NCBI RefSeq assembly: GCF_964204865.1
Contig: NC_135256.1
Location: forward strand, 9,610,001 to 9,674,000
DNA from: Styela clava
Lineage: Eukaryota
Reading direction: 5' to 3'
Length of the DNA: 64,000 nucleotides
Shown here: in pieces, positions 22,001-25,000 of the stretch
Layout of the letters: every line of letters begins with the position of its first letter
Position numbering within the stretch: the first letter of the stretch is position 1
The notes under the pieces: model-generated
Database searches by the model: none
Told to the model about the DNA's origin: nothing
What the model saw: only the letters and a program-made list of their open reading frames with translations
Program-made: the position numbers and the translations under genes

Positions 22001-25000
22001 CGTCCGTTATCTGATCATTTAAAAGAATTAAAGATTCGAATTGCAAATCAAGTTCTACCGTCGCAGAGATTCACATAGGTACTAGTAAATCCACAAAGAT
22101 CCGAGCGCATCGGTACCGGTACGGCCTTACTTGTAAGTTTATTTGTGCAGAAAAGTTTGGCGGACATCAAGCACGACGAAATAAAAGGATTCACTTTTTT
22201 TAATATAAAACTGTATTATTTTCTGAAATATTGGATCCCACCCAGAGAAAATTTGAAAATGAAATACCCTCTTACCGCCAACAACCACTTTCAAGTATCG
22301 GAAATTTAAAATCGATTGCTCCATTATTTGCGAGAAAATCAATTTGTTTCAGCCACAATAATTTACCCAAAAATTACAAGAAATTATCAAAGCGTTCTGT
22401 AGGGCCACTTCGTGTTCAATGGATGAACAAAACACGTACAATATTTCTAATACAATAACAGAAGAGTCACGAAAAATCTGTACAAAGTGCAAGTCATAAT
22501 GTTGGGAGACTTGCTATTACTGTTAAGTAGTATACAGTTAGGCATACATAGACACCTTGTATCAATATTTTTTTCAATGCAGTGGCGTCGAGTTGAGTTG
22601 CGTTGTTGCAATTGATTTCTCTTTTGTACACACTGATCCAGATGATAAACCAAAATATGGACTCGCAATCAAGGTAAAATATAATTTTATAGCTAACTAC
22701 AACCAAACTAAAATGAGTTGAATGAACAATTGATAATGCGGCGATGGTTTCCACTTGTGTATTGTTTCACTAATTTATTTGAATTCAAGAGTAGAACAAA
22801 TTTATCACCGAAGAAATATCGTACATGAACGTGAGAAATGCTACGTTCAAGTTTTTTTTATATATATTAAATTGAGAAAAATAAATAAAAGGAACTGGGC
22901 GTTTTATATTTAGGCTGTCGGTGAGGTGATTCAAGAGTACGATACTGATCAAGTATTTCCAGCGTACGGATTTGGAGTGAAAGAACCCAATGTGAAAGAA
23001 CCCAAAGAAGATTTTAATACAGATACATTTTCACTGGTGAAGTAACATTACACGAATTAAATTAATAACACTGAGTGATTTGTTGTTGTTGTTCTTTTTT
23101 AACTATCAGTGCCAATTGTTTTGAATTTACTGGACGCGTTGGTTTACTTGGCTGCTTACTGATTTGGCTGCTTATTGAACAAAATGCGCCGTGGCAAGCT
23201 TGAACACCTTACTGTAATTAGTCTTTGTGATTTGATTTAATAACTTAAAAAATGGATTTCCCTACTTTCTCCATTAAAAAATACATAAATCCCATTTTTC
23301 ACATAATTTCTCATTTTTCTTTTAGAATTTGAATTCACAATATCCGGACTGCACCAAAGTGGAAGGAATTATCGAAGCATTCAAAAGCTGCTTAGAGAAA
23401 GTCGAGGCAAAAATAAAAAGCAAAGCAAATTTTGCTCCTATAATAAAAAAGATATCAGAGTAAAACTATATATATATTGATCGTTTCAATTTTGCTTGGT
23501 ATGTCGTACAGTATATGAAGAACACTGCCATCACGATCATTAAAATAAATAAGGGATGTCGTTGCTGTAGATCGCGACACATTTTCATTCACAACCAATA
23601 CAAATCGCAAACCCACTTCGATTTTTTTAATTGTGATTAGGGTTGGGCATTTTGAAATACCTGATGATTTCAGCATTGAATCCAATACTTTTTGAAGTAA
23701 TAAAATGACAGAATTATATGTGACTTTTTTATTGCAATAGGGCCTCCAGACACTTAAATTAGTGGAAACATAAAATCCATCACTCAGTCAGTTCGCGGAA
23801 TTGTCACATACAATGAGAAACGTGTTTGAAAATAGTCACATTTTAAAATTGCAATTTAAAAATATGGCTTAACTATAAACAAAATTGAGAAAATAACAAA
23901 GATTACGGTGATTTAATATTTCTGTCTGAACCGATTCGAATAATTTACAATTCTATTCAAAATGCCAAGCCCTGATTGTGATATATAATCTAATCGAAAG
24001 TATTTGTTGTATTGAGGAGAAAAAAAGTCACAGAAGAAGTAGAATATCACCTGTTTTTATCATCTTCTAGAATGGCATCTAAGAAAGTTGGAAGACTCGT
24101 GGAATATTTCGTGCTCTTGATTGTTACAAATGGGAACATATCCGACATGGATGATACAAAAGAAGCTATTGTAAAGGCAGCCACATTGCCAATGTCTATT
24201 GTGATTGTTGGAATCGGAGGTGGCGATTTTGAAGGTAATATTAGGAAGAACATTTTATGTTGATGTTAAATTTTGTAGTAGCATACTAAAGCGTTTTTCT
24301 AGCTTACTTATTTGAGTAATTCCCATTAACACTGTTGCTGGCTCACATCGACCTAATTTTCTTTGGAGAAGAACGCAACGTACAACTCGTTCGCTCTTAT
24401 CAGTCAGATATGGAAAATAAAAACAGCAATTTTTCTTAGAATTTCTAATTTGTTGCCAGCTTTGAAAATGGAATTCAAGAAATACAAAAAATCTGGCTCT
24501 AAATTCAGGCGCCGAGCTCGAGGGTCCACTACAGTTTCTGTTCCCACAAGCAAAGCCCGTAACCTGGTATTAAGAAGCTCTTGTGTAGATAAAACGCCAG
24601 ACCTCCATGTACGATTGAGGAAATGCAAGTTTTCAGCACAATACATTATGAATGTCAGGAAATCAGTTTATTTAACTTATTTTGTTTGAATCTGACAATT
24701 TGAGCCCCTAAAACTTGTAATATCATCTAAAAAGTTCCCAGTGTCTTCATATGTAAGTTATGGAACCGAGGTTTCAAGCGTCCAGGAGGGAACCTCTCGC
24801 GTATTTACGCGTAATGATTCGAAGTCTAGGTTTTCATATGTAGATGCAACCTGGAAATCTTTATGTCTATAGGCATGAAAGAACTTGATGGTGACGTGGT
24901 GAGGTTGTTTTATATCGATGGCAAGGTAAAAAAGGAGGCCAAAAGAGATATTGTACAGGTAATATATATGTAAAGGAAGCTCCATGGCAAAACACATCTT

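What the first reader, a model, noticed from the sequence alone, without database searches (positions are those of the whole stretch)
22583..24234. All three intact copines have a degenerate vWA MIDAS site: a possible metal-independent copine subfamily
Established: canonical copines carry MIDAS elements DFTxS(NG..SLHY), a Thr in YGPTNF and an Asp in ITDG. Seen: A/B/C read DFSFVHTDP / DFSILCTDP / DLSFLRTDP, with the last Ser lost and the SLHY loop (~11 aa) deleted. YGPTNF becomes KSKANF or ACKANF, and TDG becomes TNG in all three. The rest of the vWA core is well conserved. Inference: Mg/Mn coordination was lost before the array expanded and the fold was kept, suggesting a repurposed protein-interaction surface.
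Basis: partly seen in the sequence, partly recalled or inferred. Interest (0 to 1): 0.72.

Follow-up and report, generated by a model that had tools for sequence, protein, structure and literature searches.

The report
Sea-squirt copines missing one metal site
Three neighbouring copies of a calcium-sensing membrane-adaptor gene in a sea squirt have lost one magnesium-binding pocket, but the one copy annotated as full-length keeps the residues of its other calcium sites, so it is likely a fast-evolving, re-tuned duplicate rather than a metal-free protein, while its two sisters appear to be decaying.

Summary
The motif changes are real: copines A, B and C share a 33-nt deletion after the MIDAS Asp, Thr>Ala and Asp>Asn, where 63 of 63 ordinary relatives keep D-T-S-T-D. 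They derive from a canonical copine 23 kb past the window (15 of 15 intron phases shared; stem branch 1.07 against 0.07). Loss is concentrated on the MIDAS loops (12 of 15 conserved columns lost, 4 of 41 elsewhere in vWA), and the predicted fold matches BON1 (Z 40.9). Two parts of the reading fail. 'Metal-independent': A keeps the BON1 D388/D390 calcium site, the RGLG1 NCBS1 site and five C2A aspartates. 'All three intact': only at DNA level. Database proteins (Styela clava) have only A full-length; B and C stop at intron 13, and spliced contigs route C through a stop-carrying exon in a dispersed repeat. No orthologue was found in another species. Multi-residue MIDAS loss also occurs in 3 of 141 diverse copines. 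Selection is relaxed (omega 0.64), with gene conversion and two broken fragments. Verdict: a local birth-and-death cluster with one likely working MIDAS-null copine. The scan's earlier notes held nothing on this.

The parts
16001..25561 (+). Copine A, 16 coding exons, 555 aa; the only copy annotated full-length (XP_039250051.2)
   Evidence: spliced exon 10-11 and 11-12 contigs
22583..22673 (+). A exon 11: MIDAS Asp309 (22614-22616) followed by the 33-nt deletion that removes the MIDAS Thr and Ser
22914..23036 (+). A exon 12: Asp338 and Asp340, aligned to BON1 D388/D390 (high-affinity calcium site), retained
23326..23459 (+). A exon 13: Thr>Ala403 (23425) in a rebuilt loop; ends at a weak donor whose read-through is an in-frame TAA
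24071..24234 (+). A exon 14: Asp>Asn434 (24129); 99% identical in A, B and C (conversion tract)
24873..25561 (+). A exons 15-16: Asp474, Asp494, Gln497, Glu525, aligned to RGLG1 NCBS1, retained; polybasic C-terminal tail
30893..39837 (-). Copine B: open 537-aa frame; database proteins are a 243-aa piece ending at intron 13 and a separate 108-aa C-terminal piece; C2A aspartates partly lost
43935..57144 (-). Copine C: open 530-aa frame; database isoforms of 411, 379 and 364 aa all stop before the second half of vWA, plus a separate 125-aa C-terminal piece; D388-equivalent is His
47320..47422 (-). Stop-carrying cassette exon in intron 13 of C, inside a dispersed repeat
   Evidence: joint 47320-46675; reproduces P0003 and P0005 exactly; 41 other places in the genome
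11094..12282 (+). Orphan copine exons 8-10, exon 8 frameshifted
27327..27449 (-). Orphan copine exon 1, frameshifted, with duplicated upstream DNA

Best explanation
Genes A, B and C are local duplicates of the ordinary copine next door that have lost the MIDAS magnesium/manganese pocket, and A is likely a working calcium-responsive membrane adaptor that binds partners without that pocket, while B and C are likely decaying. Shown: the three MIDAS loops are deleted or rewritten; the C2A-C2B-vWA order, the core and the residues of two other vWA calcium sites are kept in A; C2B has lost three acidic residues. Inferred history: one old duplicate (synonymous sites saturated against the parent) lost MIDAS and was kept under selection on the fold; it later multiplied inside an inverted duplication, with gene conversion, and constraint relaxed. 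Inferred mechanism: A still senses calcium through C2A and the two vWA sites, docks on acidic membranes less sharply calcium-dependently than its parent (C2B ligands lost, polybasic tail gained), and can no longer bridge an acidic residue of a target through Mg/Mn; a lysine-rich loop replaces that face. B and C inherit a weak intron-13 donor and mostly yield stop-truncated messages, C through an exonised repeat.
For: Parent: same 16 exons and 15 of 15 intron phases; tree places A/B/C with D and one unnamed relative, stem 1.07 against 0.072. Site-specific loss: 12 of 15 conserved MIDAS-loop columns lost, 4 of 41 other vWA columns, 1 of 15 C2 columns (the deletion is one event, so columns are not independent). 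Retained sites: D338/D340, D474/D494/Q497/E525, C2A D38/D44/D99/D101/D111, mapped to BON1 and RGLG1; D388/D390 is a 12.6 nM site needed for pump activation (PMC12167975, passages). Fold. A is full-length in two database versions. omega 0.64, below 1 (LRT 8.6, p about 0.003). Exons 15-16 differ at 7 of 188 replacement sites between A and B while flanking introns are 84-85% identical. B/C decay; the exon-13 donors are the only 3 of 60 donors with neither -1G nor +5G.
Against: omega 0.64 is far above the 0.06-0.07 of canonical paralogues, and no single domain rejects neutrality alone (p 0.075-0.2). A differs at 11 residues plus a 3-residue indel between two database versions while the parent's accession is unchanged. 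A has the same weak intron-13 donor as B, and I did not see its exon 13-14 joint (15 joints shown, 34 not shown), so full-length A rests on annotation. C2B, which a review calls the domain critical for calcium-dependent membrane binding (PMC10968396, passages), is the degenerate one.
Confidence: 0.55

Rival explanations
1. All three copies, A included, are now redundant duplicates drifting towards pseudogenes; the MIDAS-specific pattern is a relic of earlier selection.
For: omega 0.64; 11-13 amino-acid differences between database versions of A and C against none for the parent; two frameshifted orphan fragments; shared weak donor with an in-frame stop; B and C split in annotation.
Against: omega below 1 overall; A's frame is open in two versions; exons 15-16 are more conserved than their introns; all aligned ligands of the other vWA calcium sites are kept in A.
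Confidence: 0.3
2. The truncated products are the point: B and C make C2A-C2B proteins with half a vWA domain that compete with full-length copines at membranes, possibly with the C-terminal half made separately.
For: All database isoforms of C stop before exon 14 in both versions; the C-terminal halves are listed as separate proteins starting at an ATG at the head of exon 14; C's exons are joined in spliced contigs.
Against: The stops lie upstream of later exon junctions, the usual trigger of nonsense-mediated decay (own knowledge); truncation removes three of the vWA strands (secondary structure); C2 calcium ligands are further eroded in B and C; the cassette exon is a repeat insertion private to C.
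Confidence: 0.08
3. One reading: an entirely metal-independent copine subfamily of three intact genes with a repurposed surface.
For: MIDAS loss and fold retention are confirmed; C2B aspartates are lost in all three.
Against: Two other vWA calcium sites and C2A ligands are retained in A; only A is annotated full-length; no members found outside this species.
Confidence: 0.07

Closest known systems
Copine-5/8/9 group; nearest is the canonical Styela clava copine-8-like XP_039250050.1 (gene D, G000:C8:9697539-9730381)
   Same: C2A-C2B-vWA order, 16 coding exons with identical intron phases, 53% identity, the D388/D390-type and NCBS1-type calcium residues, all C2A aspartates (in A)
   Different: MIDAS deleted or substituted at four of five positions; three C2B acidic residues lost; about 15-fold longer branch; omega 0.64; B and C truncated at intron 13
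Arabidopsis BON1 (PDB 6KXK, 6KXU)
   Same: Whole fold (Z 40.9, rmsd 2.7 A, 475 residues); D388/D390 site aligned and kept; BON1's C2B shows a similar Asn/Ser pattern in the alignment
   Different: BON1 has an intact MIDAS (DFTAS, GPT, ITDG); A has no glycine at position 2, whereas BON1 is myristoylated (recalled)
RGLG1/2/5 vWA domains (PDB 6K82-6K8B, 8HMG, 8XT5)
   Same: vWA fold (Z 23-24); NCBS1 D338/D347/Q350/E378 and NCBS2 D205/D207 equivalents kept; RGLG1 keeps its fold with water in MIDAS (PMC7155146, passages)
   Different: RGLGs are RING ligases without C2 domains and have a complete DxTxS...T...D
Uncharacterised copines with eroded MIDAS: Mantamonas plastica EP00003_P007378, Mesorhabditis spiculigera CAJ0575051.1, Plectus sambesii A0A914WKY8
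   Same: Thr>Ala with Asp>Asn or Ser at the fourth and fifth MIDAS positions, NCBS1 acidic residues kept
   Different: They keep the loop that A/B/C deleted and fall elsewhere in the best tree; a single clade was not rejected (p-AU 0.077), so independent origin is likely, not shown

Membership tests
Copines (C2A-C2B-vWA) | Two C2 domains followed by a copine-type vWA domain | tested here: met
   A: Pfam C2 twice and Copine 200 bits against a cut-off of 27; model matches BON1. B and C: met for the genomic frame only.
Copines (C2A-C2B-vWA) | Copine MIDAS D-x-T-x-S...T...D | tested here: not met
   Only the first Asp remains.
Copines (C2A-C2B-vWA) | Second vWA calcium site (BON1 D388/D390) | tested here: met
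   D-x-D in A and B; His in C. Residues only, binding not assayed.
Copines (C2A-C2B-vWA) | RGLG1-type NCBS1 residues | tested here: met
   D474, D494, Q497, E525 in A; also in the genomic frames of B and C.
Copines (C2A-C2B-vWA) | Five acidic calcium ligands in C2A | tested here: met
   All five in A; partly lost in B and C (alignment).
Copines (C2A-C2B-vWA) | Acidic calcium ligands in C2B | tested here: not met
   N242, N244, S248 where 55-59 of 63 relatives have Asp; same in B and C.
Copines (C2A-C2B-vWA) | Calcium-dependent phospholipid binding | not testable with these tools
   Needs a binding assay.
Copine-5/8/9 group | Descent from the copine-5/8/9-like gene | tested here: met
   15 of 15 intron phases shared with D; best hits are copine-8/9; tree. 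Order of branching among D, P0009 and A/B/C is unresolved.
A cross-species MIDAS-less copine subfamily | Orthologues in other species | tested here: inconclusive
   None found, but close relatives of this species may be absent from the collections and the word-based searches are limited.
Pseudogene | Stop or frameshift in the coding frame or no full-length message | tested here: inconclusive
   No lesion in the genomic frames of A, B, C; C's seen and annotated messages carry premature stops; A's exon 13-14 joint was not seen either way.

The most novel reading that the evidence does not exclude
MIDAS-null copines that keep their allosteric calcium sites are a recurrent, undescribed class (this sea squirt, a protist and two nematodes), and Styela gene A is a working member: a natural separation-of-function protein that senses calcium through C2A and the two vWA sites but cannot grip targets through Mg/Mn, acting as a decoy or re-targeted version of its parent.
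Probability: 0.25. Interest if true: 0.6.

Novelty: new variant of a known kind. Interest (0 to 1): 0.36.

Why it matters
[quoted passage not shown] Gene A and its intact parent 70 kb away form a natural pair that differs at MIDAS and C2B but not at the other vWA calcium sites, so they could test what MIDAS adds. The value is limited: vWA domains with imperfect MIDAS are known (PMC7155146, passage), the cluster is seen in one species only, two of three copies look to be decaying, and no function is shown.

Tried and rejected
No RNA holder was listed on record in the run search (11 runs, 5 holding part of the stretch); this is no evidence on expression. Contig depth was not used to rank genes. 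A's exon 13-14 joint could not be judged (34 joints not shown) and no third laying was available. Orthologue searches: exon 13 against longer proteins gave 3 hits of 7 candidates, all Styela clava; A's vWA gave 917 hits, 120 listed, the best non-self at 50%; shorter proteins 149 hits, 120 listed, only Styela pieces above 63%; 50%-cluster library, 150 listed of 9018; metagenome contigs, 80 loci, best 62% on short stretches. The ESM Atlas did not hold the sequence. Assembly artefact (two haplotypes side by side) rejected: copies differ by 11-22% in most introns and A and C exist in two database versions. A fourth full copy rejected: exon 13 finds only A, B, C and D in the genome. A lysine standing in for the metal was considered; it could not be measured without coordinates, and one RNA contig of C changes that codon (47952). 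AU tests could not fix the branching order or reject one clade of all eroded copines. No complex prediction was run, since no partner is proposed. Literature: copine + ascidian 0 papers; none of 20 listed tunicate papers contains 'copine'; imperfect/degenerate/incomplete/lacks MIDAS gave 1 paper, without 'copine'; the one held supplement of PMC7540406 had no hit. The library lacks most subscription journals, including the BON1 structure paper, which I did not see. Earlier findings of the scan: nothing relevant.

Full report
Observation. I built exon models from coordinates: A (+, 16001-25561, 555 aa), B (-, 39837-30893, 537 aa) and C (-, 57144-43935, 530 aa), each with 16 coding exons, GT-AG introns and no internal stop. 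Database hits name the organism as Styela clava, and the database protein for A (P0004, XP_039250051.2) reads the same as my model (compared by eye). The DNA alignment of exon 11 shows a clean 33-nt gap directly after the Asp-Phe codons; the stretch that follows aligns to the parent's SLHY segment. The copine MIDAS is D, T, S, T, D (PMC10968396, passages; PMC7155146, passages). Only the first Asp is left.

Origin. A Pfam search of the genome gave 19 matches. They belong to A, B, C, a canonical copine D at C8:9697539-9730381 (23 kb beyond the window), two intronless canonical copines elsewhere on C8, canonical copines on C17 and C18 and an RGLG-like gene on C19. D has the same 16 exons and the same 15 intron phases as A and its model equals database protein P0010. 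In a 24-row tree A/B/C join D and one unnamed protein (P0009); their stem is 1.07 changes per column against 0.072 for D. Synonymous sites between A and D are saturated and dN is 0.41, so the duplicate is old. Whether it arose before or after D split from P0009 is unresolved. A, B and C split more recently (dS about 0.2 in exons 1-13).

What was lost and kept. Among 63 close relatives all five MIDAS columns are invariant. Of 149 diverse representatives I dropped 4 longer than 1000 aa and 4 covering under 85% of the vWA; of the remaining 141, 128 have all five ligands. Of the 13 others, 6 look like faulty models or gaps and 7 carry genuine changes; 3 have two or more (Mantamonas, Mesorhabditis, Plectus; names), with the same Thr>Ala and Asp>Asn or Ser. 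Of columns at least 90% conserved, A loses 12 of 15 in the three MIDAS loops, 4 of 41 elsewhere in vWA and 1 of 15 in the C2 domains (Fisher p 1e-6, inflated because the deletion is one event, and one of the 12 is probably a Ser shifted by the alignment). The AlphaFold model (pLDDT 80.6, pTM 0.74) matches BON1 best (TM 0.64-0.75; Z 40.9, rmsd 2.7 A over 475 residues); the alignment fed to it was of canonical copines, which favours that outcome.

Not metal-free. BON1 has a second vWA site, D388/D390, with Kd 12.6 nM, needed to activate a calcium pump (PMC12167975, passages). It aligns to D338/D340 of A, kept in A and B, His in C. RGLG1 has a further site, NCBS1, of D338, D347, Q350 and E378 (PMC7155146, section 2.2); through these map to D474, D494, Q497 and E525, all kept. 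A keeps five C2A aspartates but has Asn, Asn, Ser at three acidic C2B positions. B and C have lost C2A ligands as well. These are residue matches; binding is untested.

Not all intact. The database holds B as a 243-aa protein ending where intron 13 is read through, and C as 411, 379 and 364-aa isoforms. Joining exon 13 or exon 12 of C to a 103-nt exon at 47422-47320 reproduces the 411 and 379-aa proteins exactly, and skipping to exon 14 gives a 364-aa product. That exon lies in a repeat found at 41 other places among 40 scored of 205 candidates. The C-terminal halves of B and C are listed as separate proteins. In run X1, spliced contigs join C's exons 9-13 and 14-16, but exon 14 is entered from 47320, and contigs in X1 and X6 run unspliced across the exon-13 donor (15 joints shown, 2 not; contigs only; the runs' RNA status is a guess, though the joints fall on splice sites). 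The exon-13 donors of A, B and C are the only 3 of 60 donors in A-D with neither G at -1 nor G at +5, and read-through meets an in-frame TAA. For A, contigs in X1 and X7 join exons 10-11 and 11-12; the exon 13-14 joint was not among the 15 shown, with 34 hidden, so full-length A rests on annotation in two database versions.

Selection. A codon model on A, B, C gives omega 0.64 (kappa 2.2), better than omega 1 (LRT 8.6, p about 0.003), against 0.06-0.07 for three canonical paralogues, where saturation makes the figure rough. Counting methods give 0.52-0.81, and 4 of 9 intervals include 1. No single domain rejects neutrality. A and C differ at 11 and 13 residues between database versions, while D's accession kept its version; several differences match paralogue residues, so conversion or assembly mixing may contribute. 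Exon 14 is 99% identical in all three, and B and C are 96-100% identical from intron 14 to intron 15, against 78-89% in other introns: gene conversion. Two frameshifted orphan fragments lie in the array, and the flanks form an inverted duplication.

How it likely works. An old duplicate of D lost the Mg/Mn bridge through which vWA domains grip an acidic residue of a target, yet was kept with its fold and other calcium residues. A would still be calcium-responsive through C2A and the two vWA sites, would dock on membranes with weaker calcium dependence, and would use a rebuilt, lysine-rich face for binding. These steps are inferred. B and C are younger copies whose messages mostly stop at intron 13.

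Novelty. I found no paper on these genes or on MIDAS-less copines (open-access library only). CPNA-1, the known atypical copine, lacks C2 domains but keeps MIDAS (PMC3583664, passages). Imperfect MIDAS is known in vWA domains generally (PMC7155146, passage). No orthologue turned up outside the species. It is a new variant of a known family, copine-derived but failing the MIDAS and C2B tests, of moderate interest as a natural separation-of-function pair.

Noticed in passing
window 3198-4508 (-) and about 1.6 kb past the window end (L020, +): A long open frame with two thrombospondin type 1 repeats and an N-terminal part without Pfam match has an inverted paralogue on the other side of the copine array; 5021-6768 matches 62168-63999 inverted.
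   Followed up: partly
window 11094-12282 (+) and 27327-27449 (-): Two orphan, frameshifted copine fragments (exons 8-10; exon 1 with upstream DNA).
   Followed up: yes
window 47000-47790: A repeat of about 750 bp, 80-92% identical to at least 41 other places, supplies the stop-carrying exon of copine C.
   Followed up: partly
L001 and L002 (G000:C8 about 12.51 Mb): Two adjacent intronless canonical copines, unlike the other intron-rich copines of this genome; possibly retroposed.
   Followed up: no
L022:5353-5449 and L024: Gene D has a possible second first exon, and an 18-kb intron 12 where the duplicates have about 290 bp.
   Followed up: no
proteins P0272, P0217, P0158, P0153, P0239, P0267: Copines of Mantamonas, Mesorhabditis, Plectus, an amphipod and lampreys carry the same Thr>Ala or Asp>Asn MIDAS changes; apparently undescribed.
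   Followed up: partly
window 57675-58032: A perfect 180-bp tandem duplication upstream of copine C.
   Followed up: no
window 29179-29650: A low-complexity tandem repeat of short units between the 3' ends of A and B.
   Followed up: no
L029 and L028, 21-30 kb left of the window: Open frames that look like protease/reverse-transcriptase and endonuclease parts of retroelements (by eye).
   Followed up: no
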